Shown here in pieces: positions 2,695-50,600 of a DNA stretch of 64,000 bases. How positions within the stretch are numbered: position 1 is the stretch's first letter; the number at the start of each line of letters is the position of its first letter. This DNA comes from Amoebophrya sp. A120 (lineage: Eukaryota; Protista; Dinoflagellata). A program made the translations under genes and the position numbers. The stretch is taken from NCBI GenBank assembly GCA_905178155.1, contig CAJINV010000001.1:14880142-14944141 (forward strand), read 5' to 3'. The notes below the pieces were generated by a model, which saw only the letters and a program-made list of their open reading frames with translations, was not told the origin of the DNA and ran no database searches.

Positions 2695-5600
2695 TCATCT
2701 CCGATTGGCAGTGCTCCCGACTCTCGATCGTGTCGTGCTTCGCAGTGCGATCGCCCCGGCTGTCAAAGCGGTGATTCCCACTGTCGCTGCCCAAATTGCC
2801 TTGCGGTTGTCGTAAAGGAAAGAGGCAACAACGGATGATGCAGGTTCCGCATCTACTCCTGTATTGGTATTCTCTACTTCCACACAGGGCTGCGGTAGGG
2901 CATCCGGCCCGTGGTCTTGCCAGGCGGCGAAAGGAATCTCGAGCTCATCGAGAAATTCCAAGGGGACGTCATCGTTGCGGAGGTGATTTCTGGATGAGGT
3001 TCCAGAAATCACACCTCCGGAAAGACCAGCAGACCCTGCGTCTGCTGGGAGCGCATCTTCTTCCAGCGGCTTGATCAGATATCGCCCAACTCCGAGCTGC
3101 TCGTAACCAAGCTTGCGGTAGTAGTTGCGCACACCCACACCGGAGATCACCGCAATCTTTTTGCTGCCGTGTCGCTGCGCAATCGTCTCCGCAACGCACA
3201 TCAATAACTTTCCGATCCCGCCGTGCTGCGCGGAACCCTGCTTCCCCTGGTCCGCGTGCTTCCTGCGGTAGTACGACCGCGGTTCACGAAAAGAAGATGA
3301 GGAGGCTCCACCTTCAAGAACATCATTCGGCGAGACTGCAATTGCGGGGGCAGAAGCTGCTGCATCAGCACAAGTGCCGCTCGTCGATCCTACTACTACT
3401 TCCTGTTCAACTTCCAGCGTTGGATCGTCGTTGAGCGTCACGCCCGCGGTTTTGTTCTTATCGTCAGCACGGTACACCGGCCGGACTTCCCCGTACACGT
3501 GCAACTCGCGGATCAGAGCGGAATTTTCCAGCTCAGGGAACATTTCCCGCACCGCGGAGGGATCGTCGTTCAGGCGGAGACGCAGTAGGCCGTACAGTGC
3601 CCCGTTGTCGCGGTTTTTCTCGACGATCACCTCTTCTGGTGTTGTTCCACTGCTTCCGTCACCAGCCGCATCTTCTACCACCTCCGTGCACACGTTGGCG
3701 CTGTTGACGTACTTCCTAGCGTCCTGGTAGCAGTGGAAATCGTATTTCTTACCCTTGTACAGGTACGTGTCGCTGGAAGTCGTGTTTTTCAAATGACGAT
3801 AACTTGCTATGGAATCGGGTGACCCGACACTGGAAAACTGCGGTCCCTCGGAATCTGTGGCAGTCAGCAGCGTGAAGGGGGCGTCCTGTCGTCGAGTGTC
3901 AAGATTCCGCTCCTTGTGAACTTGGATCGCGCTTTTCTTCAAGGTATTTCTCTTCTCTACTTTAGCAGAAGAGGAACTCGAAGAAGAACCCGTAGCTCCT
4001 GCATCGGCGCTAGGAACTGGGATGTGTTGGTCCAAGCCGGAGAACCGAAACAATGCGTCTCGTGTGGAAGCCACCAAATCTTCTGATGTCGAATAGACGC
4101 TTCCAAGCGCGCTATTGAAAGTTCCCTTCAAGTTTGCCAGCAAGGTGGGCTTATTTTCTGCTTTTGATGCAGAAGGCTGTTGGTGTGTCTCCTGTCTGCC
4201 AGCTTCGACTTGGAGGTTGTCAGACGACAGGCCGTTCCCAGCGGTCGTGTTTGATGCCTCGTCGATATCGAATAGATCAAACGACATCATTTCTTGCTCT
4301 TCTGGCAACGTCGGCACGTCGACCGTTCCAACGACCTGTCCTACCCTTGTCGCCGTCTCCCTACTTGTTCCCTTTTTCCCTTTGCCCTTGTTTTCCGCAT
4401 TTCTCGCCTGCTTGTTTGCTTGTTTCTTCTGCTTCCGACTCATTTTCCCGTCGGTCGCCCGCTTTTCCGCGCCCCCGCCTAACCCTCGGTCAGACCCCTC
4501 CACACTGCAGAAAAACTCCCAGCCGTTGGAGGACCGGTATTTCCGGACGCGCACGACCAACTGGTCCAGCGGCTCCCCGTACCTGCGCACTTCCCGGCAC
4601 CGCGTGCACTTGCAGCTCTCGCCGCACTTGCTCAGCTGGTCGAACAGAACCTGGCGCAGATTGGTGTTCTGGTTGCCCGCGATGATGCTGACCTCCGGGA
4701 TGTCTCGAATCACGCGGTTCAGCCGGATCCAGGGGTGCACGTTCACCTTCACGTTGCACAGCAACCGGATCATGGTATCGGGGTCCGTGTCCGTGTAGGG
4801 GGTGTAGCTGCCCTCACTGTGCCACTTCTCGATTTGGGTAAAGGGCGTCACCTCACACGGGTAAATCTTCCAGTGGTCCGCCTGAAGCGCGTCGGAATTC
4901 AGCACGTACTTGAACATCTCCCAATCGGCGTCCGGTGTGGCGCCGGGGAGGTCCGGCATCAGGTGAATGTCGACCTTGAAGCCGGCGGTTTTCAGCAGCG
5001 ACACCGCTTTCACCGCACGGTTGACGGAATGTCCGCGGTTCACTTTTTTCAGAATTTCATCATCCGTATGCTGAACTCCGATCTGCACGCGCGTGCAGCC
5101 CAGAAGACGCAGACGACGGACCTGTTTTTGTATCGAAAAGGTCGAAAAGTTACTTCCGGGTATGGATGTCAATGTGATGAAAAAGCGCGTAGTACCAGTG
5201 CAGCAAATGCAAAATTACATATATTTATTTGAATGAAATTACGGTCAAACACGAACAAAATCGGCATTATTGTTACCTCGGCTTTCGTGATGTGGTCTGG
5301 TCTGGTTTCCAGCGTCAGCCCGATGATTTTGCACTCACTGAGTTCGTTCAGCCGCTGTTCTTCCGGTAGACTCATTCTCTCCCGCCCCTGCAAGTCCCAG
5401 ACACTCGACTTCCCCCGGCGGAGATCGTCTTCATTCAGGAACGTGTTGGCCGCGTAGAACAAATCTCGGCAGAATTGGTCTTGGTACTCTTTGCTGTAGG
5501 CCGACCACGTACCGCCCAGCACGATAATTTCTACCTTGTCCACCTCGTGCCCTTGCTTTGCCAGTGTGGCCGCGCGATCGTAAAACTGCTTGACCGGGTC

Positions 5601-11436: not shown

Positions 11437-12427
11437 GTGCGTGAGCTCAATTTCCTTTTCCGCTACGACTTGCCGCACGGGCAGCAAAGATGCTATGCTG
11501 CAGCCTGCCGGTTCGCACTGCGGTGCTGGTCGCTCCAGAGCAGCGGAAACTCGTGCCAGATGCTCCTCGCCAAACGAAAAAGTTGTAGCCCGTCGTAAGT
11601 AAGGCAGAGGATGCTCCCGGCCGAAGGTGGTCCCGACGCGCAGCGACGGTGGCGTCGCTGATGCGAGAATCAATGCCGTCGGACAGGTCTGATGCGTGGT
11701 AGTTCCCAGTAGTTCTAGGAACGTGAGCGAAACTGGAAAGAACCAAAACAGGAAACGAACAAAATTGAAACACGACAACATTTTTTCTCACTGACTCTTG
11801 AGCGCGGGAAACCTCGTCAGAACGTACTAAAACCAATCTTCGAGACCCTGAAAAATTCAAAACAATCAGCAAGACGAAAAAGAATCAAAGAGATCAGCAA
11901 CACAATCAACTGTCAGAACACCAGCTGATTCATTGCTCCTTCGGAATAGAGGCGAGCTCCCTTTTTTGTTTCGCTGTTTTCTGACGAGTGCGCCATCCAA
12001 GTTTATGTTCTATCGTACATGTCCAGTTATTCGGGCTGTCCGCAACATCTGCCGCCCGTGTTCTTGTAATCCTATTCGACAAAGCGATGTGCATTTCTGC
12101 TTGATTAACAAATCCTAATTGACTCAAATGAAGATTTGAGTATACTAGAAGCATATTTGACAAAAAGCAAAGTTGTTGATGTAAGAAACTGCAACATAAA
12201 TACGAATCGAGAGAAGGAGCCCTTACTGACCTTCTAGTACTAGGTCAGGCTTCTGATTTTGCATTTCAAGTTAAAGGTCAGTTTTTGTTTTGTTCATTCG
12301 GCCTATTAGAAGAAGAGACGATTGGTTTTCTGTATTATAGACACTGGTTGACAAACTTTTTTCTCGCATCGAAGTTCGTTTTTAGCGAGCGAAAAACTCG
12401 GTTCATTTGGAGAAAGTCGAAGACCGG

Positions 12428-15400
12428 CTAGTCGACGTCAAAATCTTCGCCGTCGGCGCCTTATCAAATGTAAAAATGTCTGGGTCTGGAAGAATTGGAA
12501 CTTGTCATGCTAGATCTGAAGCATGCAAAAATCTGTGTTGCATGATTACCAAAAGTCGTCGAGTTTTGACCAAATCGGGAGGGGGTTTCTCATGCAGGAT
12601 AGGCATGAGAGAGATCGCACAGAATCTGTCATGCTAGGTCCTGCATTCCAGACCTCATGGGTCATGGAAAAGCTGCATGACAAATCGCGCATTCTTCCAG
12701 ACCCAGACACGTTTACATTTGATACGCCTGCCATGGGCGCGATCGTGTGCTCCGCTTCCATGTCGGGAGCCGGTTCTGTATCAAATGTAAAAATGTCTGG
12801 GTCTGGAAACTTGTAGTGCTGGGTGGCGTCTCATGATGAGGCTACAAATGCTGGCTCAGCATGACAAGTTTCTGAGCTCCTAGGTGTTGCCTATTCTGCA
12901 TGACAAACTGCGCTTCTGCATCACAGAAAAGCGGAGCTCTTGGGTAACGTGCATGACAGATTTAAGAGTCATGCCAGACAAGCATGACAAACATGAATTC
13001 TTCCAGACCCAGACATTTTTACATTTGATATTCTGGCGGTTTTGGCAATTCCGCGTCTAAGACGGACTGGTCCAAGAGCGACTGACCCGTAGCGACCTCT
13101 GACGCGAGGGGCCCGACATGGTCGTCAGCCTCCGCCAAGGACAGTTCGGTCCCGCCCGGCGAGGGTTCCGCGGCGATCTCGGCCTCCGCGTCCACATCGA
13201 CTGCAGGTCGTGGTGCTGCAGCTGCTTCCTTGCTTTCCTCGGCAGGTTGTTCTTCTGGTGGTGGAGATACTTCCGCTTCCGCTGCGGGTTCATCTTCCCC
13301 CGTTGGTGCCGCACCCTCCGCATTCTCCGTTTGCGCCGTGTCGGGCCTGTTTTCGTCCCCAGGCGCCGGAGCTGCTGTCTCATCGGGTGCAGGGGTGGCT
13401 TCCGCCGTGTTGTCCCGCTCTATGGACGCATGGTCACCTTCAGTCTGCTCCGCGTCACCAGCGCCGCCCGCTTTCTCTTCCGCGTCCACCGGCGCTGCAG
13501 ATTCTGGTTCCTCTGCTGGAGGCGCAGCCTCTTCTGTGGCTGGAGCGGCCGGGTCAGCTTCGCCCTCCGCAGCACCGCCGGCCGTATCTTCGCCTTCATG
13601 CACACCCTCGGTTTGTTCCGCTGCAGCTTCGCCAGCCGCAGCAGCCTCCTCCTGCTCTCCCGCAGGTGCTTCTGCTTCGGCGCCCGGAGCTGCGGCCTCC
13701 CCGCCCTCTGCCGCAGGGGTGGCTTGCTCACCGGCCGCTACCTCCTGCTCCTCCGGTAGCGTCTCGAGTAGTGTCGAGGGTTGCGCCCCTTCCAGCACTG
13801 TTGACTGCATGGCAGACTGCGTTTCCTCCCTCATCGTACTCTGCAGCGAAGGCCCGTCAAGCGAGCCTTCCTGGGTGGGGAAAATATCGATGTGCTCTGT
13901 TGGTCCGGCCACCGCGGCGCCGGCCTCGATAGAGTCGGCGTTTAGCACCATGCTGGATCCCTCGGGCCGCTGGGAAACGGTGAGCGAAGTGGTCTGCCCA
14001 AGCTGTTCGTGCGCACCCTCCCGCACACTGGCTTCGACCTGGTCCGTCGAGGCTAAAGCGTCCGCCGCCGCTGGCTCATGCGGCTGTGCATCTTCCGCTT
14101 GTGGGGAGTCCGCAGGACGCCTGTGAATGGTGACAATCATACAGATAAGTACTCGATCTCACATACCTAATTCCGTTTTGACCCAAGCTGACTCCATCGT
14201 ACGCAAAAAGCCAAAAGATACGACGAAAGTACTCTGACGAATCCGGTCTTTCTGGAGCGTTCATTCCCGGTATCTCGACGACGACCGGGGCGTTCGCAAG
14301 AGCCTGCAGTTCGTGTGCCTCTGCCTCCAGGCGCGCTCGTGTATCTGTTGGCTTCTCAAAAAGCCTGGGCATCTCAGCCAGCACTTTGCGTGAAACCTTA
14401 TGTTGAGGGAAAAAGCAATCTTTAAAATGTTGCAACTCAAACTTTTCCAGCTGCGCAATTTCATTTTCATGATAAGTTGTTCGCAATCATTTCATTATTA
14501 TTTGCCGCAAATTTCACAAAAAAAAAATCTTCATTATTACCGCAGGCCTAATGCCGTCGAGGTTCATTTTTCGCAGCGCTTTATTTCTGAGTGAGTTTTC
14601 GGAATGATGCAGCAAGTGTTCCATGGGCAATTCCGCCTTCATGTGTTGGATAAGATCTTCTGTTGCGTCTCTCAAAGCCTTTGTGATGCCGATGTACTCT
14701 TTGCGGCCGACATCGAAGCTCAATGTCATGTTGGAGTCGTCCGACGGATCAATCGCGACCGGCCTGTTATTTTGAATTTATTCAGTAAAAAAATTGCTAC
14801 GGATCAGTGAAGCGAAATCATAAAAAAGGATGAGAGAGTATAGTGTGAGATTTGCAAAACCAAACATAACCAATACCGCTTCGCCGCACCGGGAAGGAAG
14901 CCCTTAATAGGTTTGTAGATCTTTCCTGCCATCTGCTGATAGTTCTGAGCTGCCCGCAGAACCGCAGGATGCTCATCCGCGATGTCTGCTGGCTTTGCGG
15001 TCAAAAAGTCTACTCGGTTTGGACTCTTGGCTGTTGGCGACTGTTTTATTGGGGGAAGTTTTTTATCCTCCGACACCGACACGCCAGTGACGCTAAACCT
15101 CTTCTCAAAACAAACTCACTATCTATGCAAAGCTGAAGAACAGCGATGAAAAAACGACCACTACACACAAAAATTCTCAATACGTGCGAGGGCTCTGCTT
15201 TTTTCTTAATTGGTTGCCCATTCGTGTCGAACATCGGTTCCAGGTCGAACATTTCGAATCCGCCCTCGACCCACTTGTTCTGCCCCGGTTTCTCGGACAA
15301 TTCTTTCTCCTTCCGTGCGATCCTATGTTCGTCCATCGCAATCTGCTCGTTCTCCATATCCTTCTGCTTCTTTTTCGCTTGGTCGGCCAGTTGCCGCTGA

Positions 15401-17014
15401 CTATACGTGCCAATCGCCGGCGGTCCGTCTGGAGCCCCATTTCGCGTGCTCGACGAGTGTGAGGGATAGTTCTGCAACATTTGCTGACCTGGGGATGAGA
15501 CCATATCACAGTTGATTTGCAATTTCCATTGACGTTGTACTCTTACCCTTTCTTGAATTGTTATCCGAGTCCACAAGTGTAACGCGACAAAATTCTTCAT
15601 CCAGCAATACACTTTTATACCTGACTTGAAGCTCCTACCATAGATCAAATCTCCACTGTTGCTGCTTCGCAGCGGTTGAAATTTCCTCGCCATGTCGGGC
15701 TGAGCATTGTAGCTGAACGGCTTTGGCACGGCGTAGGGCAGCGTCCTACCGACAATTTTCGGAGCTTGGCTTAACGACGGTAGCTCGGGGAGGGAATACT
15801 GTCCGGGACCGGGTGCGTCAGAAGACGTGTGCTTCTTCACTAACGCTTTTGACTCCTCCATAGTCTCCGTAGTATGGTGGAATGCCTCCTGGGCGAAATC
15901 GCGGCGGGCTGAAAGCAAAAATTTCCATCAATCTGCTTTTTTTTCCAATGTCAGCATTGTACTGTTGAAATTATGCGGATGAGAAACTACAAAAGATGCG
16001 AACAATTGCTCTCTTTTTCGAAAACATCTAACCTGGTAGCATCTGTGGTGTGTATGCCCCCGGGCCCGGATTTGCTTGCGTTACGAAAGTCGCCTCGTCA
16101 AAATAGCCGTGCTGTGGCTTGTGCTGGTTGAGCCAGTTTTTTCCGCCCTCTGGTACGAAGGGGTCAAGAAATTCCTGTGCAGACATGACGTCGTACTTCC
16201 CTACCCCTGGACCGTCCATCGTGGACCGGAATGGCCTCGGAAACTTTGGCTGCTTGCCGAACTTGTCGAGTTTTGCCAATCGCGGCCGTACGTTGGTCAC
16301 GTCTGGGAAGTAGGTTCCTGGATCAGGAAACTTTGCCCCCGCATACTCTTTCAGCATGCGCGCCGCATGCTTCGGACCGATCAGACCCTTGCCTTGCATC
16401 ACCTGATTGAAGATTGTAAACAAAATTTCGTCTCCTTCTTCGTGTTTCATTCAAAATCGAAGTCGAAAGTTATGCAACCATGCATTCACTGTAGTCGTCA
16501 ATCGCGATCGCTGCTGCAACACTCTAAACAAAGTATCATACCTTTGTCCTATCTTTTTGGTAAACCCGGCCTCCCTGTGGCATTGGCATGTCACCTGGTT
16601 CGTAGACGAAAGCCGAGTATTGTCCGGGTCCGGGTATATCCGCCCCCGATAGATCCGTGAAGCTTGGATGCTTCCCATCCTTTATGAGCCCGTTATCCAG
16701 CTGTTGCTTCTTTGGCGGGAGCTGTTTGTGCGTTTGCGTTTCTTTAGACAAAAATAAGCTTCAAGGAAACCGATGTCCATCTCCATGCTGCAGATGAGCG
16801 TTCTCGCATTAAGACAGAGAGGACCAACAGTGTTAGAGTTCTTTACTAGAGAAGCAAAAACATCGAGTATCAGTACGTTTGGATTGTAGGTGTTTGGCGC
16901 GGGGCTGAAGTAGTGGAAGCGTATCTGGTCCTCGATACTGTGCCCGGATGGTGCCAGGTCCGCCGGAGGTGCTGGCACCCCGCTTCGGCCCGGAATATTC
17001 GCAGGGCCCACCAT
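12428..17014 (-). CDS. SHIPPO/STPG (PGPGxY-repeat, ODF3-like) axonemal protein with a long Ala/Glu-rich tail; multi-exon
   Basis: Repeats SPAPNTYNP, IPGPGQY, PDPGTY, GPGVGKY, PGPGAY and APGPGQY lie in 15700-17014. Downstream exons appear to chain through GT-AG introns into ORF 13019..14140, then across two inserted elements to ...PPEPAPDMEAEHTIAPMAGADGEDFDVD* (TAG at 12428). It could be two genes. Confidence 0.65.
12462..12724. mobile_element. Non-autonomous TIR element / introner, family A copy 1 (263 bp)
   Basis: About 34-bp TIR TATCAAATGTAAAAATGTCTGGGTCTGGAAGAAT. The 5-bp TSD CGCCT is at 12457-12461 and 12725-12729. The interior is homologous to 49241..49502. Confidence 0.93.
12779..13030. 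mobile_element. Non-autonomous TIR element / introner, family A copy 2 (252 bp, divergent interior, probably inverted)
   Basis: Perfect 30-bp TIR TATCAAATGTAAAAATGTCTGGGTCTGGAA. The TSD TTCTG is at 12774-12778 and 13031-13035. Confidence 0.93.
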
Positions 17015-18419
17015 GTTTGTTTACCCTGGACCTCCTTCAAACGAGATCCTTTGAAGATTCACGCCTTGTCCTGCCCAGCCATCCTCTGTCCGCCGTGTCA
17101 CAACCAGCCCATTTCCTACTAGATCACGGCTGACTCTGGCTTATTTTCTCTTGCGAGCATAATTGGAATCAACAAGGCAAAACGAAAGGGGCGACACGAA
17201 AAGCTCGCTCAAGAAGACGATTGTCCGAGCGCTGTCCCGCTCTCGTCTCGACAACGACAACTCTCACTGCTACCCATTCATTCTATCGTGGATTCACGTT
17301 CACAGTCGAACCCGAAAAACTTCTCAGAACAATCAACTGCGAAAACTCCCTCAAACGACGAAGCAGAACGACACAAAATCGAATACTCCCGGGAAAAAGA
17401 ACAAACGTGGAACTTCCAAGACTACCCAGTGAGTAGCAAGTGCAATCGTGTGTGTACTTATTTTTTTTTTGCACTGCTGAAAATGAAAATTGAAACCACG
17501 AGCGGAAAAAAGTTGAGGACATTTGCATTGTAGCTCAATCAAATAATGTACACGACATTCACTCCGCCTGCATACCGCCGCTAATCGGAATCAGCTCCTC
17601 GCTCCTCCTCCACCGCGACAAGGAAGATCGGAATGTTGTCCTGAGCTGCTGGTTTCTGTTTGCTAGGCAATAATCGTTTGAAAACGACGAAGACGATCTT
17701 CGTAGCGACATCAAGCAGTTCTTCGCATATAACAAATCTGTTTCAAGTGCGTTTCAGGATAGTTGGTATAAGGATAAAATTACCTTGAGATTGTTGTAAT
17801 CACAATTGCGTAAAATTTTTGACAAGGATATTGAAAGTTCGGTGTAAGGTACTGGAAGTGAGTTGACTCGTAACGAGCTCCTCCTGCATAGAGTCTGTGG
17901 GTGCTAACCTGGGGCGGAGAGTTTGGAACAAAGGCGAGGAAAAAGAGGGTAGAATTCGGAATAGGTGACCTCAAGATCAGAGGAAATCAGGTTGTGACAA
18001 TCTTGAGGACACCCACTCCCTGCTGAGCTCACTGGGATATACCGCGAGCCTTCTCTCTAGTCAAAGTCTGCTAAAGCTTTAACCGATTGAAACTCAAAGT
18101 CTGCTGTCTGATAAAACTTTTCGTAATCTTGGATTGATTCTGGTCTGGTGTAGTCTGATAAGTCTATTTGATAAGGTTTGATGCTAGCAAAGAGTGTATC
18201 ACAATCTTGTCTGGAGCTGCATGCAAGCAGCTGCTGTGTGATATCGAAAATAAATCTTGGATTCGTTTAACTGCAATTACCAGGCAAAGAGCACTGTGCT
18301 CGGAAAGGCAAGCTAGAAAGCTATGCATTTCAAGCGCAAGAGTAAGAGATAGTGTGTGCTCCGCCTTGCAGAAAAAATACAATTTGACGTTGCTCTTGTA
18401 GTCATCCGACCGCAACCGC

Positions 18420-20727
18420 TCAATCATCATCCACGTCGTCCCGAAAGATGACGGTTGCCGCGCGGGACGCACCAGATTCACGCAGCAGTGTGACCACAGC
18501 GGAGTTCAAGGCACCTTCTGCATGATCCAGCGCGGTCCTGGAACTCTCGTCCTGCTTGTTCAAATTGGCTTTGCGTTCCATCAAAAACTTGATGAAAAAC
18601 GCGGGGCACTCCGTCGCTGCAGCGATCAAGCACGTCTCACCACGCTTGTTCGTTTTGCTGTAGTTTTTGTTGGGGCTGATGGTACTGCGTGCTTGTACCA
18701 ATACTTCTTCCGTTTCCGAGGGAGTAGGCACAGCATACACTACACATACACTTACACAAACGCATCGATTTGCAAAAATTAAATTGTCGTAGTGCAGACA
18801 CGAAAAAACTTGATGATACCAGAAATTCTCAAAAAAAAGCAGTACTTGATATCCAGTCCCTTATCCAGGAGCATGGAGCAGAGCGTTTCGTCCGAAAGTG
18901 ACACGGCGTCGAAGAGGCAGGTTCGACCGTCCTCGTCCACTTGGTCGATCTTGTCCATCTTTGTAAGCAGGTATTCGACGACCTGTGAGTGCAGTTTATG
19001 GCTCGCTGCATGGTAGAGAGCGCAGTAGAGCCGCTGACTTTGTGGCTTTGTTTCATCTATTATGGTACTGCTTATGCATGGAAAAATTGAAGACAAGAGA
19101 CTAAAAACACAGTGACAGTACGTCTGTTCTCCCTGTTCGGCAGGCAAGGTGCAGGGCAGTCTTCCCCGTCCTGGTCGCCGGGTCTACCTTCGCGTCGTTC
19201 TTGATGAGAGCCTCCACGGTTTCCCTGTGTCCCTCCGATGCGGCCCACATCAGCGCGGTTTGGTAACTGATAGAGTTGAGCTCACAATCACATTCAGATT
19301 CGGTGATACATCATCGCATAATTATTTTTCCTGTCCCTCAGGATGAATCAGCATGCCAGGCAGAGTAAGCTTTATTTCGTCTTCATTATACATTTAAAAC
19401 CAAGATGAAGAAGCAAAGAAAAAGAAAAGAAAGCCGTTACTTTGAGTCGGTCTGATTGACTTTTGCGCCTTCCGCCAAGAGCAATTCGCACACCTCCGTG
19501 TGACCGTTGGCAGCCGCTTTTGACAGTGCACTTTCACCACCCTCTGTAACATAGTTCCCTGGGACGGAGTACTGCTTGATCTGTTGAGCCGAAATTTAGT
19601 TTTTTACTTATGTACGATTTTGATGCAGCTTGCAAAAGCACGAACAAATGCTGATTCGAAATCTTCTTCAGCTAACTACAATACAACGCAGTAAAAAAAT
19701 AAACGAGGCCTGGTAACAAAACTATACCAAAAGCTCGCAGATTTCATATTGGCCAGCGACCGCGGCCCACATGACGACGTTCCACTGTTCATCGTCTTTT
19801 GCTTCTACGCTGGCCCCCTGCTCCAAGAGAAATCGCACAGTGTCGTACTCCCCGCATTCGGATGCTGATAAGTTTTTGAATCCCGATCGCGCACAACAAT
19901 GTGTTTTATTTGAGAATCGAATAGGAGAAACATAGGAAGTGAATTGCTTTTGCTTCAAATTGATTTGCATGAGAAACAGCGCTACTTGTTTTACTTTCAT
20001 TCTCTACCTTTCATTAATGCGGTGATTCCCTCGTCGTCCTTGGCATCGACCACTCGCGATCTTTCCCTTTGTCCCACCTCTCCGGAGCTTCCCAGCTTTT
20101 TTGGCAAACTGGCAAGTGCTGCAGTTATCAAAAACTGCATGATGTCAATGTTCCCTTCCTGTTTTGGTTTTTTTCCCGTGATTTCGCTTGCAGTTCGAGG
20201 AGATTAAGGAGCCTCCTGGTGCTGCTATTCATCGTCACTCGCGAATAAGTATTCTTTGCAAACCTCAGGGATCACATTCATCGTGCTATCGGTACCTTTG
20301 CTGCTTTCATGAGTGCGTTTTCTCCTATGTCGTCCTTTCCGTTTATTCGTGCGCCTTGCGAAACGAGGTATTCACATATGTCGAGGTAGCCTTGCTCTGC
20401 CGCGTGCATCAGGGGTGAGCAACCGTCAGCATCCTTCTGGTCAACCTGGATTTTCGGGATTGTTTCAATTTTTCAATTCCTGCGCTTTGCCATTGCCATC
20501 GGAGCACGTAAATCATATACTTATTTTCAGCAACAACGAATCAAAACACTTCAAAAAAGTCCTTTCGATATCACGCTTACCTTTATCTTCTCATCCTTGT
20601 ACACTTTCTGAACACGCTCGACATCTCCCGTAAAAACGGCCTCAGTGAGGGGGGAGAAGTTTTTTGCAGCTGCAAGGGCTCCAGCGCTGTTCTGCGCCCG
20701 CAGCGCAGCCAACAACGTGGACGTCAT
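18420..20727 (-). CDS. Ankyrin-repeat protein (multi-exon)
   Basis: Ankyrin units across GT-AG-separated exons: DADGCSPLMHAA, DDEGITALMK, LLEQGASVEAKD, QTALMWAA, DEDGRTCLFDAV, LMERKANLNKQDESSRTALDHA. ATG at 20727. Confidence 0.9.
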
Positions 20728-21599
20728 CTTAACAAAACTGAGCTTCTGTTTCTCCCTTTGAAACGAGAAAAAAGAGTACCTAAACAAGGGTGATTTTACA
20801 ATGAGTTCGTTGTGGTTTCTGCAACGATGAAGGACGTGTCAGTTTAAACACGTGTTATGTATGGCACCGCCCCCCACGAAATCGTTGCGATGTTATTTCG
20901 TCCTGTCTCTCACTTACGGAGCGATTCTCTACATCGATTTCCCGCCCCGAAATTCGACGTACGTCACTGAATCTTTGCGCAGTAGTACTTCTTACTTTGG
21001 TTTGACGTACAGCTCAGTTCTACTGTCTGTACAACCTGTGGCACAGGCACACCGACAAGGAAGGTCGTTATGGATACAAGAACACACACCGAACTGGTTG
21101 TAGTTGGAGCTACGTTGTAGCTGGAGCTACGTCGCCCTCGATTCTCTCTCATGCTGCCGGTTTTCGTTGCGATCTCTCTTTGAAGCAATACTTAATTCTT
21201 CAGTACATGCTAGATTCACAGAACACGGAAAGCTTGTCTTGGCTTCCGCAAGTATTTTATTTCGTCCGATGCAAAATTTGAATTTTCTGGGAGGTGGCTC
21301 GTCTGGTACAAACAACGGGTAAAATATTGCCGCAGGAATGGGGATATTCCTGTGAGTGATCTTGCAGGGGCTCTGTTCTTAGGGAGTCTGCTGATACTTG
21401 AAACTTTTATTGAAACGCAAGCGTCCTTTGGTTTACCTCAATTACAATGGCTTCAATTACATTCCTGCAAAAAGAACTTTCTGTCACAGTCACTGATTCA
21501 GATAATCAGTTGTGGGAAGATCATACATTTTATGCAAAAGCAGAACCACCGCAAACCCGAATTGAGTCATTGTCATCACACAAGATGTGACTATTACGG

Positions 21600-26333: not shown

Positions 26334-26562
26334 TGTCAGTACGCTCGATGTTCCACCCGATCCAGATCCTCGCGTCTTTGTGTCTCGTCTTCATAAGCTC
26401 GTCGTGAGCAAGATCACGACTTGAACCCTTTGAACACTTTGGTACGACTTTACAGACTCGAGGCAGTGAACTCAGTCACTGGACCGATTTGAGAACTTTC
26501 AGAACCTTCAACCTTGACGTGGTTCCTCTCTCCTTTCGTTCTCACGTGTTCAGGCTCTAACA
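26334..26562 (+). repeat. 5' LTR
   Basis: TGTCAGTACG...GGCTCTAACA, a direct repeat of 32303..32531. Confidence 0.97.
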
Positions 26563-26564
26563 TT

Positions 26565-26574
26565 CTGCCTAGAG
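26565..26574 (+). other. Putative primer-binding site, self-complementary to the LTR (not TGG-type)
   Basis: CTGCCTAGAG starts 2 nt after the LTR. It is the reverse complement of CTCTAGGCAG at 32426-32435 (CTCGAGGCAG at 26457-26466 in the 5' LTR). Confidence 0.6.
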
Positions 26575-26711
26575 CTTGACGCAGAAACATTTTTTTTTTC
26601 CCTTCTTTTCCATTTTGCGTTGGTGATTGGCCGCGGGCAATCCTCAAGACAAACAACTACCACGTCCCGACCACCCACAGAGCGGGACTTCAACAGCACA
26701 AATTTGACAAC

Positions 26712-27861
26712 ATGGCGAATTCGGGCGCGAAGGTCGAGCTCGTGCCGATCCACAAGAAGGCCGAGTGGGAGACTTTTGAATGGCGTTTGCGCAGCAACAT
26801 CATCAACGTCGTCAAGGTCCCCGCCCAATGGGCTGCCTTTATGGCAGACGACAACTTGGTGGATTTTCAGCCCGCTTTGACCGCCCGCCAACAAGCCAGG
26901 CTGGGACAATTTGGAGTCCGCTTTTACCGCCGCAATCCAGGGTGACGCGCTTCTCTTGGTCCAGGGTGCCCAACGAACTGGCGCTCTGCAAGTTTTCCGC
27001 TTTTTGAAGCGTCAGTGGGGCCAGGAGAACAACCAGATCGACCAAGCTGCTATGTTCGCGAAGTTCACCACGGAAAAATTTACTTTGGGCGGTAAGGACA
27101 CCCCGGACTTCACGTTGTGGATTTGGGACAAGTACAGTTTGGCTTTGAAAATTCCCAACTACATCCCGGTCGGTGCCCAGCTGGAACACCACATGCGCCA
27201 CATCTTGCGACACCTTTTGGACCCGGACTGCATGGGCAAGATCATGTCCGAACTGCGTGCCACCCCGGACGCCCAGTTGCACTGGGAGAATGTCGGAATT
27301 CCCCGCGTGTTGGACTTTATCTCCTCCGGACAGGCATCCCAAGAGAAGGAGGTCCAGGCCCGTGTCAACATGGCCTTGGGGAACAACAACAACAACAACA
27401 ATGCCTACGACGGCAACCACAACAACATTTTCCCGGGGATGGACAATCAGCAGGCTTTTGGCACGTTGTGCCAGGGTCAGCAGGTGATGATGAGCATGAT
27501 GGCGCAGAGTATCCAGATGCAAAACCAAATGCAGAACATGAATAACGGTGGTGCCAACGCTTCCGCGTTTTTCGGTGGTCATCAGCTGTTTAGCGCCGCG
27601 GATGGCAAGCCCATCAAGCCCGGAAACATGTGGTGTGCCAACTGCCGCGCCAACACCAACCACGACACCAGCCACTGCTTTCACAAGAAAAAGAACCCCC
27701 AGAACAACAACCACCAGAACAACCACCAGGGTGGTGGTGGCGGCAAGGGCGGTGGCAAAGGTGGTGGTAAGAAGGGCGGTGGTAACGGCAAGGGCAACAA
27801 TAAGGGCGTGCAGAAGGCCGGCGGCAAGCACGGCAAGAAAGGTGGTGTGAAGAAGCGCTGA
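26712..27861 (+). CDS. gag: Gag (one +1 frameshift near 26881-26910)
   Basis: The ATG ORF at 26712 overlaps ORF 26911..27861 in the +1 frame. Zinc knuckle CANCRANTNHDTSHC (CX2CX5HX4C) and a basic GGK-rich tail. Confidence 0.85.
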
Positions 27862-30800
27862 TCACCATCTTGCTTTTACCACGACCCGGATTGCCATCGA
27901 TGTTTCGATGCTGATGAAGCAGAGTCGATTGTTGATTTGAATCAAATGGATGTTTTGAATTTGTATGACGACAAGTTTGCTGTTGAAAACGAGAAGCACG
28001 ATTCGAGCTTGTTTGCAAGTTCATCGTGCACGAACAAGAACGACCAAGAATCATCTTTCGATGATGACGAGAACTACTACTTCTTTGCGAATAATGAAGT
28101 AGTTCCGAACGACGACACAAAGACACGATGTGAAATTGATCACAAGATGCCAACTTTCGACGTGAAAATCAATTCTACAATCTTTTCAGAAATTTTCGCG
28201 CAGGGGCCAGATCTTGAAAAGAAGCCGCGATTAGCGCGCGACGTTTTGGACTCAGGCACGACGCACGTTGTGTCTGCAGTCGCGTCCGATTTTGTCTCCT
28301 TTAGGGCCAACCCGGTTAGGATAAACGGAGTTGGTGGAGAGGTAAAAGCGAAAGACCCGCCTCGTGTAGGTCGGCTACGTTCCAATGCCTTTGGCTACAA
28401 TGTTGGAATTTTTCACAAAGCGCTTCCAGTGCGTAGGTTGCTGCCGACGACTGACCTCAACAGCCAAGGTTGGGCAGTCCATCTAGATGAGCCAGGGAAG
28501 CCATCTACGATTTCTTCGAGGTTTTCAAAGGTCGTTTTTCCGATACAAAATTCCCCACCCGAACTGCCCTGGATTCCAGATGGGATACTTTTTGGAGGCA
28601 AAGGGGAACAGGTTAAGTATCGCGAACTCGCTGAGAGTCTTTCTTGGGATGAATTAAATCAGGCATCAGGGTCTGTCAGCAGTTCGCTAGTGCGATCGAC
28701 AAACTGCTTTTCCGACAGTACAAAAATGCGCCGCGTTGACAACGATTCAGATTTAGAGTGCGTCTTGGCCGACCGCGTAGAGGATTTTGAGCATTTATGC
28801 TACCTGTCCAAGCTTGACCGGCATCGTCGCCGTGGGCACATTTGGGTGCCAGGGGAAGATATCTTCTGCCCGGAATGCGCTCTCGCAAAGGGTCGCAGGA
28901 AGGGTTGTAGAAAAGAACGACCACAGAAGTATATCGATCCAGCCCCTTTGAAGCAACTTGATGCGGACTTTTGGGGGCCAGTTAAGCCCGTCAGTGTTGC
29001 CGGGAATGCATGGCTTTTGGTTTTCATTTGCCCCAATGTTGGCCGTGTTTTCGAATTCCCTCTGGTTCACAAAAATCAAGCCTACGCAGTCGCAAAGGAT
29101 CTCATTTTGAAGCTGCGAGCTTCAGAGAGTGTCGCAACTAACGAAAAAGTTGCTTGGTACATTCGCAGTGACAATGATCCCGCATTCAGGGCACAGAAGT
29201 GGGAATCAACTCTCCAAGACCTCGCCGTTTTCTGGGAGCACTCTGTCCCATACACACCACAGCAAAATGGTGTGTGCGAGCGCTTTATGGGTACACTGGG
29301 TCCCGGTCTAAGGGCTATTTTGGTAGGTGTTGACTTAAGGCTTTGGGACTATGCCGCGAGTTATTTTGTTTACACCTGGAACAGGATTCAAAGAAAAACC
29401 TACAAGCGAGCACCTCAGTACAATGGAATGTCCCCCATTGAGGCTTGCGCAGCAAGAAAGTCACTGAAAGCTGACCGAAAAGTTTCTCGCTTAGAACCTC
29501 AAGAGCCCGACGAGATGAAAACGACATCTGATTTTGACTCCAAGATGCGCCGCTTCGGCTGTTTGGCGTATTTCTTGAAGCAACCAGTAGAAGAGGTCAA
29601 GAAACTTGTAGCGAAGTACGTGAAAGGAGTCTTTCTGGGATACTGTGAAAACTCATCATGCTACCTGGTAGGCAGTTACGTCGCAGACGATAGATACACA
29701 AAGAAAGGAGACACCAGGTGGGCAGTGTACGAAACTCGCAATGTGAAATTTGTGGAGTCAGTTTTGATAGACAATATCGACTCGCTACGCCCAGGGTACT
29801 CCGGTGGTGTTGTCGTTTCAGACGACCAGATCTTGCGGGCGATCAGTGGTCCGAAGGATACAAGCCAGGTGGTCAATTCTGCGCAGGATAGTGCTCCTGT
29901 GCCTTCCCATCTGGGTGGTTCTATTGCTTCAGGATCTGGGGGGGGTGTCAAAGCTCCTCTACCACTTTTGGATGTCGAAAACAAAAGTTCTTCGCAAAAG
30001 AACATTTCCGACGCCGTTGACTCTCCTGTTGATCTTTTGCCCGAGCTACCTGTTGATGTAGATATGAAAAATGCCAGTGAGGACAGTTTGCATGATGACC
30101 CTGCTCCCGCCCCTGCCCCGCCCGAACCTGCTAAAGAGCACCTTCCCGACGTCGTGTACGGTCGGAACAAGAAGCAGGAGCCAGTGCAGTGGCGAAAACG
30201 GGGACGACCAAAGGGGTCGAAGGACAACAAACAGCGTGTCCGCCACACAAAAGCCCAAATCGCAGCAGATGAAGAAGGCGAAGCATTTTTCTCCGAGATG
30301 GCTGATAGCATCGAGGATTGCTTCTTTGCCCAGTCTCTGTATCATGATTTTGATGAAGGCGAAATCGTTTCCGATGTCTTTGTGCAATTTGCCCAAAAGG
30401 CTGTTTTGAATTCGCCCGAAGGACCCCACTGGCTGGAAGCTGCAAACCAAGAAAATTGCAAGCTGAAGGCTTTTGAAACGTGGAGGAAACCAACCGACGA
30501 AGAGATGGAGCGCGCCAAGAAAACGGGCGCTATTCCGATTGCCCTTGTATTTTCCAAAAAGAGGTGTGGAAAATACAAGTGCCGAGCTGTGGTTCTCGGA
30601 AATTTGTATAAGCCTGGCTCCGATCTCGAAGCTTATGCGCCCGTAATCAGCTTTGGAGCCTCGCGCTACCTGCTGACCGAAGCCGCTTCCAACGGTGATG
30701 CCATTTGCCTTTTTGACATTGACAACGCATTTGTCCAGTCTTTGATCGATTCGGAAATTTTTGTCCGACTTCCGCCCCTATGGCGTGCAGAAAACGATGA

Positions 30801-32110: not shown

Positions 32111-32291
32111 ACGCTTTTCGAGGATTTTTGAAACCTCTTGAGCTTTTCTATGCCGTAGCCCTGGTCGCATCCTGTCTTTGGGGATAATTTGTGATCTATC
32201 CTGATCCCGACCTATTTAAGGTCCGGGGGGGGTAGTGATTTTTGCTTGTTTAAGCTTTTGCGACTTGAAATTTTGAAAACGGCTTGCTCTT

Positions 32292-32302
32292 GGGGGGGGG
32301 AA
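32292..32302 (+). other. Polypurine tract
   Basis: G9-AA immediately before the 3' LTR. Confidence 0.85.
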
Positions 32303-32531
32303 TGTCAGTACGCTCGATGTTCCACCCGATCCAGATCCTCGCGTCTTTGTGTCTCGTCTTCATAAGCTCGTCGTGAGCAAGATCACGACTTGAACCCTTT
32401 GAACACTTTGGTACGACTTTACAGACTCTAGGCAGTGAACTCAGTCATTGGACCGATTTGAGAACTTTCAGAACCTTCAACCTTGACGTGGTTCCTCTCT
32501 CCTTTCGTTCTCACGTGTTCAGGCTCTAACA
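32303..32531 (+). repeat. 3' LTR
   Basis: Direct repeat of 26334..26562, followed by the TSD CTTAC. Confidence 0.97.
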
Positions 32532-47600: not shown

Positions 47601-50600
47601 GGAGCTTCTCTTCGATCGAAAGGCCCCAGTTCAAAACACCCTGCTCCGTCTCGGTCAGTCGATTTTGTACCGACTGCACGATTTTGTTCTGCACAGACTC
47701 GACCGTTTTGAACATCTTGTCTTGCTCGTTCCCGAACCGGGTTTCCAAAAACGGGATCAACTCCGCCCGGGAAACTGTGTCGGTCAGCCGGTTGTCCACT
47801 TTCAGATCCACGTTGTGCAACAGGCTCTGCGTTTCCGACCGGAATCGACTCTGCAGCGCCTCCAGCCGGTTGTCCAACATCGGAGTTAGTTCTCGGTGCG
47901 AAATCGCGTGCGACAGCTTTTCGTCCAGATCCGTTTTCACCTCGGCGAGAAACTCGCGGGTTTCGTTCCTCGTCTCCGCTCGCACGGTCGCCATCTTCGA
48001 TTCCACGTACGGCAGCATCTCGTTCTGCTTCAAGCTCGCGATCTTGATCGCCACCTCGTTTTTTATCTCCGACATTTGCTGATCTGCGTCCTGTTTTGCC
48101 TCGCTTTTCACGTTGCGCAACCGGCTATCCAGGTAGGGAACCAGCTCGTCTCGCTTCACCGTGCCCGCCAGCGACTTTTGCAGCGGCGCGTACTGATTCC
48201 GGGAATGCGACTCCAGCTCGCCGAGCTTCGTGCCGACCTGTAAATATTCGGAAATTGAGGTTGAGTTTGAAAATGGAAACGGATTCGAAAGCAACATTGG
48301 TTTGGATATATTGGCGCTGACGGCATTCTTGCATGATAAATCGAAGCTACGAACATACATGACAACGTACCTGTCTCATCGTATCCTCTAAACGCTCGAA
48401 GCGATCCGCGTTTGCGTCCAGGTTCTTTTTCAGAAACCCGCTCATCTGACCCAGTGACGTCTGGTGCCGGTCCCCGACCCGCTGCAATTCGGCGGCGTGC
48501 AGGTCGTGCACCTGTTGCAACAGCGACTCCCGCTCCTGCTTGGCCTGCTGCAACTCCGTCGCGATCCACTCCGTGCGGTTCGCGACGTGCTTCTGCATGG
48601 AATTCAATCCGTCCTGGACCCCCTCCTTCACGCTGTCCAGCGCCTTTCGCACATTCTCCGGCGACAACTCGCGACTGACGCCGGTAGTTCCTTTCGACAA
48701 CTGGTCCTGTTTCACGCGCATCTCGGCCACCTGCTGCTGCAACGCCGCGACCTCGTCGCGGCGGTCCAGCACTGTCAAGGCTTGCCGGACGTCGCGACGC
48801 AGCACCACGTCCTCCTGTTTCAGTTCCTCCTTGAACTCCGTCCGCATCTGCGCCGCCTGGGATTGAATTGTTTGAGTAATCCGCTCATCCTCCTCGCGAA
48901 ACGCTTATCCTGAGTAAAAACGTACCCACACCAGAGTCAAGATGGGGAATCGGCTAGACAAATCCACGAGTTTTGGCTGTTTTGCATGACAAATTTGGAT
49001 TCGTAGTATAGTGCTGCTTCAGCTAGCTCAGCAGCATCACAGATCGAGAATACCATGCTGATTGGAGCATGACAAATTGCAAAACACGACTAGAAAATGC
49101 TTCTCATGGGGCTCCGCATGAGAAACATTCTCAGCATGCAGATTTGCATTACAACTCTGGTGTGGGGACGTTTTTACTCAGGATAACGCTTCGGACATTC
49201 TCTGGCTCTGTTCCCCGAACTGTTGCTCAATCCGCTCCCATATCAAATGTAAAAATGTCTGGGTCTGGAAGAATGCAACTTGTCATGCTAAATCTGAATC
49301 AGGCAAAAAGCTGTGTTGCATGATTGCCAAAGGTTGTGCACTTTTGACCTAATCGAGAGGCAGTTTCTCATGCAGGATAGGCATTGGAAAGGCTTCGCAG
49401 AATCTGTCATGCTATGTCCTACATACCAGACCTCATGGGTTATGGAAAACCTGCATGACAAACCTGGCAATCTTCCAGACCCAGACATTTTTGCAATCCA
49501 TATCCCACTGCAGCTTCTCCTCCCGCTCCAGCTGCAGTGCCTCGCGCCGTTGCTCTTCTTCGATCAAGAGAAATTGCTGCCGCTCGAACTCGTCAAAGTC
49601 CAGTTCGTTCAGCTCATCACTCGCGCCCTTAGACCGGTCTTTCTTGTTGCTTTTGCTCGATTTTTCCTTTCTCCTACTGCCCGTCACCTGCTCTATTGTC
49701 TGTTCCAGTTTCAGCTCTGGAAGAAGAGATGCCGCATTACCCCCTAGAAGACTAATCTCCTGCTCCACACCGGATTGACCCCAGGGAAGCTGCCCGGTCG
49801 GACCGCCCGCTCGGCTCAATATGGTCTCGCGGTCCACTGTACTGTCCGTGCGTGCAACGCTCGCACTTGGAAAGGGAGCAGCGCTTGCTCCTCGCATCGG
49901 ATCTTCCACCACTGCGGTACTGTCGCCCGACCAAAGACTCGGCCCTCGGTCGGCGAGAGGGTTCGAAGTTCCCAACAAGGATGGCTGGCTGAAGAGGGGC
50001 GGCGCCCCCACGGGATCCAACTTATCGGTCAACCGCTCTAGGCCGAAGGGATCGTTTTCTTTCGGCGCGAGAAGCCTGCTGCCTCGGTCCTCTGCAAAGG
50101 GCGAGGCCGCGAACAGAGCCCCCACCTGCTTCGCTGGCATCACTTTACCGCTGTCTTGCATCCTTTTCTCGCGCGATGCGAAAGAATCGGTTGTCAACAC
50201 GCTATTCGCAAGGCCCTGCTGTTGTAGTGTGTCTGCAGTGGGAATGGACAGGTCGATTGTTCCTTGGAAGGATTCCAATTTAGGAGCTGCGGTCATGCCC
50301 TCCAGGGGCGGCGCTGCTGCACTTTTTCGATTTTGTTTCTCCTTCACTTTCTGCATTTGGCTTTTTCGTGTGGCCGCAGCAGCCGCTTTTCTTTCTTTTT
50401 CGCGGTGCAACAACTCTCTTTCCTTTTCCTCGTCCGAATCCACTGGAATGGTGACAATTCCAGCCAAATCGTCTTCCTTGCCGGCGCGCGCGCGCTCTTC
50501 CTCTTCCTCCGCGGCGTTCTCCTCCGCGAACAGGTTGCTCTCCGCGTCGCTTTCTACTTGCACAACAAAACTTGTCCGCGTCGCCGGCTTAATATTTTCA

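What the first reader, a model, noticed from the sequence alone, without database searches (positions are those of the whole stretch)
12457..13035. TATC...GATA TIR elements inside a coding exon behave as introns; one has no canonical splice register
Seen: two elements with 30+ bp TIRs and 5-bp TSDs interrupt the C-terminal exon. Deleting each element plus one TSD gives ...KPPEPAPDMEAEHTIAPMAGADGEDFDVD*, while retention gives immediate stops. On the sense strand, copy 1 (TSD AGGCG) can be read GC-AG. Copy 2 (TSD CAGAA) offers only CA-TA, AG-AC, GA-CA, AA-AG, AT-GA or TA-AA. Known: introner elements with inverted and direct repeats and non-canonical borders are described in Amoebophrya, and the removal mechanism is unresolved. 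Inference: removal is guided by the TIR hairpin rather than by GT-AG, in a genome whose other introns are canonical.
Basis: partly seen in the sequence, partly recalled or inferred. Interest (0 to 1): 0.85.

Follow-up and report, generated by a model that had tools for sequence, protein, structure and literature searches.

The report
Hairpin transposons spliced without splice signals
Small hairpin-shaped mobile elements sit inside protein-coding exons and are missing exactly from the assembled transcripts although most have no normal splice signals; this is an already described oddity of the plankton parasite Amoebophrya, the likely source of this DNA, and these copies narrow down how the still unknown removal step likely works.

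Summary
Two elements (263 and 252 bp, TIRs of 30-34 bp, 5-bp TSDs) interrupt the last coding stretch. Transcript contigs from two samples lack exactly 268 and 257 nt; DNA contigs keep both. Two more copies in this window, neither with a canonical register, are also removed exactly, 285 and 267 nt. In another assembly, 93 of 105 copies have perfect 5-bp TSDs, both orientations occur in exons, and GT/GC-AG registers are at chance level.

The class is published: Amoebophrya A120-type introner elements (PMC7789003), mechanism unresolved. 'Other introns are canonical' holds locally only.

The locus adds constraints. At equilibrium the two neighbours are predicted to cross-pair (by 22-31 kcal/mol), which would skip the 49-nt exon, yet it is kept. 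A copy with mismatched outer ends is still removed. One copy ignores an equal-length GT-AG route. Best reading: stem-guided cutting and joining within the TSDs, committed during transcription (0.6). All RNA evidence is assembled cDNA, so a reverse-transcriptase artefact is not excluded. This scan noted similar elements in two other genomes (unchecked).

The parts
12462..12724 (.). Element E1, 263 bp; TIR arms 12462-12495 and 12691-12724
   Evidence: removed with one TSD (268 nt) in transcript contigs of X1 and X2
12457..12461 (.). TSD of E1, low-coordinate copy
12725..12729 (.). TSD of E1, high-coordinate copy
12725..12773 (-). 49-nt mini-exon between E2 and E1, kept in the dominant transcript
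   Evidence: joints 12456-12725 and 12773-13031, side 49
12774..12778 (.). TSD of E2, low-coordinate copy
12779..13030 (.). Element E2, 252 bp, reverse orientation to E1 and E4; TIR arms 12779-12808 and 13001-13030
   Evidence: removed with one TSD (257 nt)
13031..13035 (.). TSD of E2, high-coordinate copy
13031..14120 (-). Large Ala/Glu/Pro-rich coding exon upstream of E2; preceded by a GT-AG intron at 14121-14232
11969..12456 (-). Last exon: final codons, stop at 12428-12430, and 3' UTR
   Evidence: table 8
14121..16399 (-). Upstream part of the host gene with six GT-AG introns; the joined exons give one open frame of 892 residues from 16399; no Pfam family on the two exons scanned
48906..49185 (.). 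Element E3, 280 bp, different TIR family with the same terminal motif; TSD 48901-48905 and 49186-49190; no canonical register
   Evidence: 285 nt removed in the X2 contig
49186..49235 (-). 50-nt mini-exon between E4 and E3, kept in the transcript contig
   Evidence: table 8
49241..49502 (.). Element E4, 262 bp, 85% identical to E1; its two ends differ at 4 of the outer 10 positions; TSD 49236-49240 and 49503-49507; no canonical register
   Evidence: 267 nt removed in the X2 contig

Best explanation
These are non-coding DNA-transposon-like copies with terminal inverted repeats and 5-bp target duplications that sit in exons and are missing, each with exactly one duplication, from the assembled transcripts; they are likely excised from the pre-mRNA by a cut-and-join step guided by the element's own terminal stem rather than by splice-site dinucleotides, and that step likely commits while the RNA is still being made. 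Shown: anatomy, abundance, exact loss in cDNA assemblies, presence in DNA, independence from orientation and from GT/GC-AG. Inferred: (1) spread by a DDE-type transposase supplied in trans, not found here; (2) the two arms pair as soon as the second is transcribed, placing the two TSDs side by side at the foot of the stem; (3) an activity that reads the stem and the shared end motif TAT-N5-GY-AAA cuts both TSDs at the same position and joins the exons, undoing the insertion at RNA level; (4) commitment comes before about 200 further nucleotides are made, or ends are matched by their TSDs, because otherwise neighbouring copies would cross-pair. I favour a dedicated, non-lariat pathway like that proposed for euglenid nonconventional introns. 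The cut position inside the TSD and the enzyme are not determined.
For: Exact removal of 4 of 4 elements in transcript contigs that also lack GT-AG introns: 268 and 257 nt in X1 and X2; 285 and 267 nt in X2. DNA-like run X9 has unique contigs that run into the TIRs and no such joint among the listed rows. No GT/GC-AG register in E2, E3, E4. E3 offers a GT (+9) to AG (+13) route of the same 285 nt, but the contig matches the exon up to 48899 with 0 other letters, so that route is not used. E2 is reversed relative to E1 and E4, and all are removed. In another assembly: 93 of 105 paired copies have a perfect 5-bp TSD, 83 of 93 distinct; GY-AG in 14 of 184 strand-instances against 6.25% by chance, p = 0.44; deleting element plus one TSD keeps the reading frame in 23 of 24 copies with coding flanks (of 122 scored; chance one third), orientations 9 and 7; retention breaks the frame in 26 of 26. 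Each element alone folds into a terminal stem with pair probabilities near 1. The E2-E1 precursor at equilibrium cross-pairs (outer 0.995, inner 0.947; 21.7-31.4 kcal/mol better), while E2's own stem is the minimum until 190-200 nt past its end; the mini-exon is kept. Precedent: in Euglena a paired terminal motif is required and excised introns are circles (PMC12501133 abstract and discussion).
Against: No result here shows that RNA pairing, rather than the end motif read as sequence, directs removal: TIR symmetry is also what a transposase would maintain. The outer stem is often imperfect: E4 differs at 4 of the outer 10 positions and is removed exactly; 55 of 152 copies have 3 or more mismatches there. 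Registers ending in AG are somewhat in excess in coding copies, 18 of 26 against 13.0 expected (one-sided P 0.034, one of six features tested; 13 of 21 against 10.3, P 0.16, at the stricter cut-off), which a spliceosome would favour. All RNA evidence is assembled cDNA; contigs drop rare forms, and 56 and 39 joint rows were not shown, so minor retention or exon skipping is not excluded. E3 and E4 rest on one contig of depth 17 in one run; X1 and X4 did not cover that gene. The raw-read run X13 had no reads on the host exons. Folding energies are predictions.
Confidence: 0.6

Rival explanations
1. A modified major spliceosome removes them as lariats. It would read signals carried inside the TIR (GY-AAA at +9 as a displaced 5' signal, its complement TTT-RC about 10 nt from the 3' end as a branch-like site) and tolerate any terminal dinucleotides, as described for the tunicate Fritillaria.
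For: All 8 ends in the window have GT or GC at +9 followed by AAA; G9 is kept in 92 of 93 partner ends while positions 4, 5, 7, 10 and 15 vary. Mild excess of AG-ending registers, 18 against 13.0. Nearly all spliceosomal proteins are present in A25 and A120, with U1 undetected (PMC7789003 section 10). Fritillaria precedent as summarised in PMC11282704 (passages). That TTTRC resembles a branch site is recalled knowledge.
Against: No terminal dinucleotide is shared at either end across E1-E4 except the element's own TA at one end. E4 has no AG in any register and is removed. The +9 GT and a nearby AG in E3 are available and unused. The motifs would be buried in a 30-bp stem. The same motif may simply be the transposase site.
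Confidence: 0.25
2. The loss is a reverse-transcriptase template switch between the two TSDs at the foot of the hairpin. The real mRNA keeps the element, and the protein is either rescued by ribosome hopping between the duplicated codons or truncated.
For: The elements have the textbook signature of such artefacts: no canonical site, flanking direct repeats, strong structure (PMC10275267 passage). All RNA evidence here is assembled cDNA, and the main text of PMC7789003 has no occurrence of 'template', 'artifact' or 'RT-PCR'. A 5-nt duplication holds one whole in-frame codon in every phase, which hopping would need (hopping requirements recalled).
Against: One unbroken contig crosses both E1 and E2 in each of two samples at depth 244 and 99; a common retained form would be expected to break it at the repeat (inference). 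After heating and refolding in vitro, E1 and E2 should cross-pair, which puts unlike TSDs together and would not give the observed product (inference). Retention breaks the frame in 26 of 26 coding copies, including mid-gene E3 and E4; hopping over about 260 nt at very many sites would have to be very efficient.
Confidence: 0.08
3. The elements are absent at DNA level in the cells that gave the RNA (empty-site allele or precise excision), so nothing is spliced.
For: RNA runs (samples S1, S2) and the DNA-like run (S7) carry different sample and study codes. Precise loss of element plus one TSD is also the sequence of an empty site.
Against: The transcript contigs match the window's exons with 0 other letters in all listed host-gene pieces, so the strain is the same or nearly so; all 4 of 4 insertions would have to be absent; X9 shows no empty-site joint among the listed rows. 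Coding copies in another assembly break frames in 26 of 26 cases while both flanks keep coding signal in phase.
Confidence: 0.04
4. Ordinary GT-AG sites elsewhere are used, or the gene simply ends at the first stop inside E2.
For: E1 can be read GC-AG; frame-preserving GT-AG pairs exist inside each TIR pair.
Against: The transcript contigs skip exactly element plus 5 nt; the inner pairs would leave 6-45 extra nucleotides or change the exon sequence.
Confidence: 0.01

Closest known systems
Introner elements (IEs) among the non-canonical introns of Amoebophrya sp. A120 and A25 (PMC7789003; read: abstract, sections 5, 10, 11, 12, 16, 32, supplement part 2 and passages; figures not seen)
   Same: Inverted repeats at the ends, 3-5 nt direct repeats at the borders, A120 motif of TAT + 7 variable bases + at least three A (8 of 8 ends here), mean non-canonical intron length 240 nt in A120 (257-285 here), no transposase inside, RNA-supported removal, mechanism left open.
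   Different: TIRs here are 30-34 nt against the published 8-20 nt; the duplication is strictly 5 bp (0 of 93 extend to 6). The sections read treat splice positions as variable and do not test orientation, cross-pairing of neighbours or TSD randomness. The host's identity was not tested by sequence.
A120 introner families in PMC12130899 (read: passages; supplement file 8 parts 15-16, 32 of 58 A120 rows; files 13-14 not searched)
   Same: TIR DNA families of 252-261 bp with 30-33 bp or longer TIRs (fam12, fam100) and 278-279 bp with 30 bp TIRs (fam124), superfamily unknown, mostly non-canonical ends. In fam3 GT and AG ends are each 26%, near chance.
   Different: No sequence match could be made: the TIR words were not found in the 12 supplement files searched. 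The automated TSD calls there range from 2 to 6.
Euglenid nonconventional introns (PMC12501133 abstract and discussion; PMC11282704 passages)
   Same: No GT-AG, terminal pairing, TSD-like repeats, likely MITE origin, coexist with GT-AG introns. The best functional analogue.
   Different: Euglena needs a short CDG/CH'G pair at a fixed distance and a purine at the exon start; no register of E1 or E2 puts CDG at positions 4-6 (read). Circular excision products are shown there and untested here.
Spliceosomal introners of Polarella, Symbiodinium, Aureococcus and Micromonas (10.1101/2020.10.14.339549 and PMC9860276, passages)
   Same: MITE-like, TSD-flanked, some make introns in both orientations, no net change in the mRNA.
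   Different: Those carry or recruit G[TCA] and AG from the element or TSD, so their TSDs are constrained (GHNN, AGGH, NAGGH). Here TSDs are unconstrained and canonical registers are at chance.
Fritillaria borealis non-canonical introns (as summarised in PMC11282704, passages)
   Same: MITE-derived, with TIRs, non-canonical ends at genome scale.
   Different: Dominant AG-AC/AG-AT ends and a fixed exonic TAC, removed by the spliceosome; no fixed dinucleotide here.

Membership tests
Amoebophrya A120-type introner elements | Inverted repeats pairing the two ends of the intron | tested here: met
   26-30 of 30 terminal bases match in E1-E4; stems predicted. Longer than the published 8-20 nt.
Amoebophrya A120-type introner elements | 3-5 nt direct repeats at the exon/intron borders | tested here: met
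   Perfect 5-bp repeats in 4 of 4 and 93 of 105.
Amoebophrya A120-type introner elements | IR starts TAT, seven variable bases, then at least three A | tested here: met
   8 of 8 ends against the description in PMC7789003 section 11.
Amoebophrya A120-type introner elements | Removed from RNA with non-canonical borders | tested here: met
   4 of 4 removed in transcript contigs; 3 of 4 without GT/GC-AG. cDNA assemblies only.
Amoebophrya A120-type introner elements | Repeated across the genome | tested here: met
   Summed contig depth 1.1-2.6 x 10^5 over the elements against 25-34 on flanks in X9 (not a copy number); 106 distinct paired copies in another assembly.
Amoebophrya A120-type introner elements | Host is Amoebophrya of the A120 kind | not tested
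   No genome is held for the window and no protein-based placement was run. Inferred from the motif, element sizes, GC 52% against 51.2% and co-oriented genes.
MITE / non-autonomous TIR DNA transposon | Short, uniform, non-coding, TIRs, fixed-length TSD of free sequence | tested here: met
   105 of 106 copies are 240-293 bp; 83 distinct TSDs among 93; none extends to 6 bp.
MITE / non-autonomous TIR DNA transposon | Autonomous partner with the same termini and a transposase | tested here: inconclusive
   None found: longest paired copy is 972 bp with frames of at most 86 codons.
MITE / non-autonomous TIR DNA transposon | Empty-site allele in a relative | not testable with these tools
   No fetched locus matched the window's flanks beyond element sequence.
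U2-type spliceosomal intron | GT/GC-AG ends | tested here: not met
   Absent in E2, E3, E4; 1 of 26 coding copies against 1.6 expected.
U2-type spliceosomal intron | Lariat intermediate, U2/U6 dependence | not testable with these tools
   Needs raw or dedicated RNA data.
U12-type intron | AT-AC or GT-AG ends with an RTATCCTTT donor (consensus recalled) | tested here: not met
   No AT-AC register in 4 of 4; only a partial likeness at one register; minor snRNAs reported absent.
Euglena nonconventional intron | 5'-N3CDG ... CH'G N5-6 signature | tested here: not met
   No register of E1 or E2 has CDG at positions 4-6 (read by eye; signature).
Reverse-transcription artefact (falsitron) | Direct repeats, strong structure, no canonical site | tested here: met
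   description.
Reverse-transcription artefact (falsitron) | Deletion absent from reads made without reverse transcription | not testable with these tools
   No direct RNA run among the 15 runs listed.

The most novel reading that the evidence does not exclude
This lineage runs a second, non-spliceosomal splicing pathway that undoes transposition at RNA level: it catches a stem ending in TAT-N5-GY-AAA as it forms on the nascent transcript and rejoins the RNA across any 5-nt duplication, in either orientation and any frame. That makes exon insertions of a whole transposon superfamily silent and lets them pile up 25-100 nt apart.
Probability: 0.4. Interest if true: 0.85.

Novelty: already known. 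Interest (0 to 1): 0.52.

Why it matters
The class has been in print since 2021, so the elements themselves are not new. How they leave the RNA is still open: the searches run here (open-licence papers and bioRxiv only) found no paper that maps the cut, the excised product or direct RNA reads for Amoebophrya. This window gives four RNA-verified copies within two PCR-sized stretches that separate the models: opposite orientations, a neighbour pair predicted to cross-pair, a copy with unlike ends, and a copy with an unused GT-AG route. If removal needs no splice dinucleotides, it is a second splicing chemistry in a nucleus that also has a spliceosome, and it explains how a transposon can fill exons without killing genes. 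If it is a cDNA artefact, the annotation of tens of thousands of introns needs another look.

Tried and rejected
Whole-genome search: no genome is held, so copy counts come from read-laying and a collection scan.

Raw RNA run X13 (1 of 3 such runs laid): no reads on host exons, 78 reads on the element only; it gives no junction counts. X1 and X4 do not cover the E3/E4 gene.

Viral and stray hits: L134, L135 and L094 match only the 22-nt word and diverge after it; rejected as chance.

Autonomous partner: L032 (972 bp) and the one-ended L047 hold no transposase-length frame. The full-length Copia at 26334-32531 also makes a 5-bp TSD but has TG..CA ends, so it is not accepted as the partner.

E4's odd end as private decay: rejected; the same end recurs with other flanks.

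U12-type reading: rejected (membership test). Rfam: 0 matches in the window. Pfam: no family on 19 of 21 frames scanned, including the host exons.

Direct sequence match to published families: TIR words not found in the supplement text of PMC7789003 or in 12 of 14 files of PMC12130899; figures and the two unsearched files may hold them. PMC13149111 does not mention Amoebophrya.

The terminal consensus is partly circular because the search pattern fixed seven positions; one search is used instead.
Full report
Observation. The coordinates are right. E1 (12462-12724) and E2 (12779-13030) have TIRs of 34 nt at 94% and 30 nt at 100% and perfect 5-bp duplications. Deleting both gives the stated C-terminus; keeping E2 stops translation four codons in. 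The same scan finds four such elements in the window and none in 20 shuffles. The two extra ones, E3 (48906-49185) and E4 (49241-49502), split a frame of more than 2,500 codons in the middle, carry in-frame stops, and have no GT/GC-AG register. E4 is 85% identical to E1; E2 is a relative in the opposite orientation (69% reversed against 63% direct); E3 has an unrelated interior.

RNA and DNA. Fifteen runs were listed and five were laid. Runs X1 and X2 (two samples, one study code; RNA status is the tool's guess) each give one contig, 3582 and 3586 nt, that skips 268 and 257 nt with five ambiguous letters, keeps the 49-nt exon, and also skips six GT-AG introns, which shows that these are transcripts. 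Of 15 joints listed there, 13 are GT-AG and two are E1 and E2; 56 rows were not shown. In X2 a 5877-nt contig skips a 133-nt GT-AG intron, 285 nt (E3) and 267 nt (E4) with contiguous record coordinates (39 joint rows not shown; X1 and X4 had no cover). The DNA-like run X9 has unique contigs running into the TIRs at both pairs and no such joint among the listed rows; it may be the source of the window and is not independent. The raw-read run X13 covered only element sequence. All of this is assembled cDNA, so it shows the dominant form only and cannot give the register.

The family. Of 170 matches, 30 had no partner in reach and 106 distinct paired copies remained. Of 105 with both flanks, 93 have a perfect 5-bp TSD, 6 one mismatch and 6 worse; 83 of the 93 TSDs are distinct; GT/GC-AG is possible in 14 of 184 strand-instances, against 6.25% by chance. 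At the free end, positions 1-3, 6, 8, 9, 11-13 and 16-20 are kept in at least 91 of 93 copies, while 4, 5, 7, 10 and 15 vary. A coding model trained on window frames and on frames that cross no element was applied to each flank separately. Of 168 elements of all families, 122 had a perfect TSD and enough flank; 24 had coding signal on both sides, and 23 of these stay in phase after deleting element plus one TSD (26 of 28 with shorter flanks). Both orientations occur (9 and 7; 13 and 5 with shorter flanks). Among 26 such copies retention breaks the frame in all, GY-AG is possible in 1 (1.6 expected), and an AG-ending register in 18 (13.0 expected, P 0.034; 13 of 21 against 10.3, P 0.16, at the stricter cut-off). 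These copies have no RNA check. No autonomous copy was found.

How it likely works. Each element alone is predicted to form a terminal stem that sets the two TSDs side by side. Four facts limit the mechanism. First, orientation does not matter, so any signal is in the symmetric ends. Second, terminal dinucleotides do not matter, and E3 leaves an equal-length GT-AG route unused, since the contig keeps the exon sequence that this route would replace. Third, perfect pairing at the very end is not needed: E4's ends differ at 4 of 10 positions, and that end variant recurs elsewhere. Fourth, equilibrium folding is not what is read. E1 and E2 together are predicted to cross-pair by 21.7-31.4 kcal/mol across three flank lengths and two temperatures, which would join unlike TSDs and drop the mini-exon (574 nt, a frameshift); E2's own stem is the minimum only until 190-200 nt past its end. 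The exon is kept, so either the first stem is trapped or processed during transcription, or ends are matched by their TSDs. Five of 17 close pairs in the other assembly are predicted to cross-pair on both strands, so the case is not unique. I put stem-guided cutting and joining with early commitment at 0.6, a modified spliceosome reading GY-AAA at +9 and its complement at 0.25, a reverse-transcription artefact at 0.08 and DNA-level absence at 0.04. The enzyme and the register are inferred or unknown.

Comparison with what is known. PMC7789003 (sections read; supplement passages) describes non-canonical introns in Amoebophrya A25 and A120, 60-65% of RNA-supported introns, a subset with inverted and 3-5 nt direct repeats, an A120 motif of TAT, seven bases and three or more A, 29,850 repeated copies, U1 undetected, and no known mechanism. 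The elements meet five of the six defining features; the sixth, host identity, was not tested. PMC12130899 lists A120 TIR families of matching size (32 of 58 rows seen). PMC12005148 (passages) confines the odd elements to part of the genus, and PMC11453091 (passages) repeats the 2021 figures. Euglenid nonconventional introns are the closest working analogue but have a different signature. Other dinoflagellate introners recruit G[TCA] and AG from constrained TSDs; these do not. PMC10275267 (passages) shows that the anatomy is also that of template-switching artefacts. Two earlier notes of this scan report similar elements in other dinoflagellate genomes (not checked); a search by sequence found none.

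Verdict. Real, confirmed at transcript-assembly level, and an already described class. The value lies in the constraints and the ready tests. Eight literature searches were run; those aimed at register, lariats, co-transcriptional effects or direct RNA (46, 58, 73) found no such study in Amoebophrya, within a library that lacks most subscription papers. Supplementary figures of PMC7789003 (S19-S25) were not visible and may already show the end motif in more detail. Interest 0.52.

Noticed in passing
window 12725-12778 and 49186-49240; L001-L133: Elements cluster tightly. Both window pairs are 54 and 55 nt apart (two such pairs by chance 1.3e-5); in the other assembly 22 of 69 neighbour gaps are 25-99 nt, 4 are 100-149 and none 150-199. 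Suggests insertion next to an existing copy.
   Followed up: partly
window 26334-32531 (+): Full-length Copia-type retrotransposon against the gene direction: 229-nt LTRs differing at 2 bases, TG..CA ends, 5-bp TSD, pol frame of 1339 codons directly after a TGA that ends the gag-like frame, possibly read-through.
   Followed up: partly
run X13 reads laid at window 12462-12549: About 74 raw RNA reads hold the first 87 bases of an E1-like element (90-95% alike) between unrelated sequence on both sides, while the host exons have no reads. May be a one-ended copy retained in a transcript of another strain, which would fit a need for two ends and family sharing between strains.
   Followed up: no
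L001-L133: Many copies pair unlike end variants yet have perfect TSDs (55 of 152 with 3 or more mismatches in the outer 10 bases); several interior families share one terminal motif, as if one transposase served them all.
   Followed up: partly
window E1-E4 interiors: CATG occurs 6-9 times per element against about 1 expected per 260 bp, within a recurring GCATGACAA-like word, also in the unrelated E3. Possibly protein-binding subterminal repeats.
   Followed up: no
L032 2501-3472: A 972-bp copy with perfect TIRs and TSD: an E1-like element with about 710 bp of non-coding sequence inserted near one end.
   Followed up: partly
window 15620-16399 (-): The host protein's N-terminal part has four PG-rich tyrosine motifs that recall sperm-tail PG-rich/ODF3 repeats of flagellar proteins (recalled); Pfam gave no hit on the exon scanned.
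   Followed up: partly
window 17461-20851 (-): Neighbouring expressed gene with seven GT-AG introns, ankyrin-repeat-like by eye; serves as the canonical control.
   Followed up: no
window 33480-33760 (-) and 46300-46640 (-): Two similar TPR-like coding stretches by eye in different genes; not aligned or tested.
   Followed up: no
window 2698-5214 (-): Frame with Radical_SAM and Radical_SAM_C domains, a candidate marker for placing the host.
   Followed up: no
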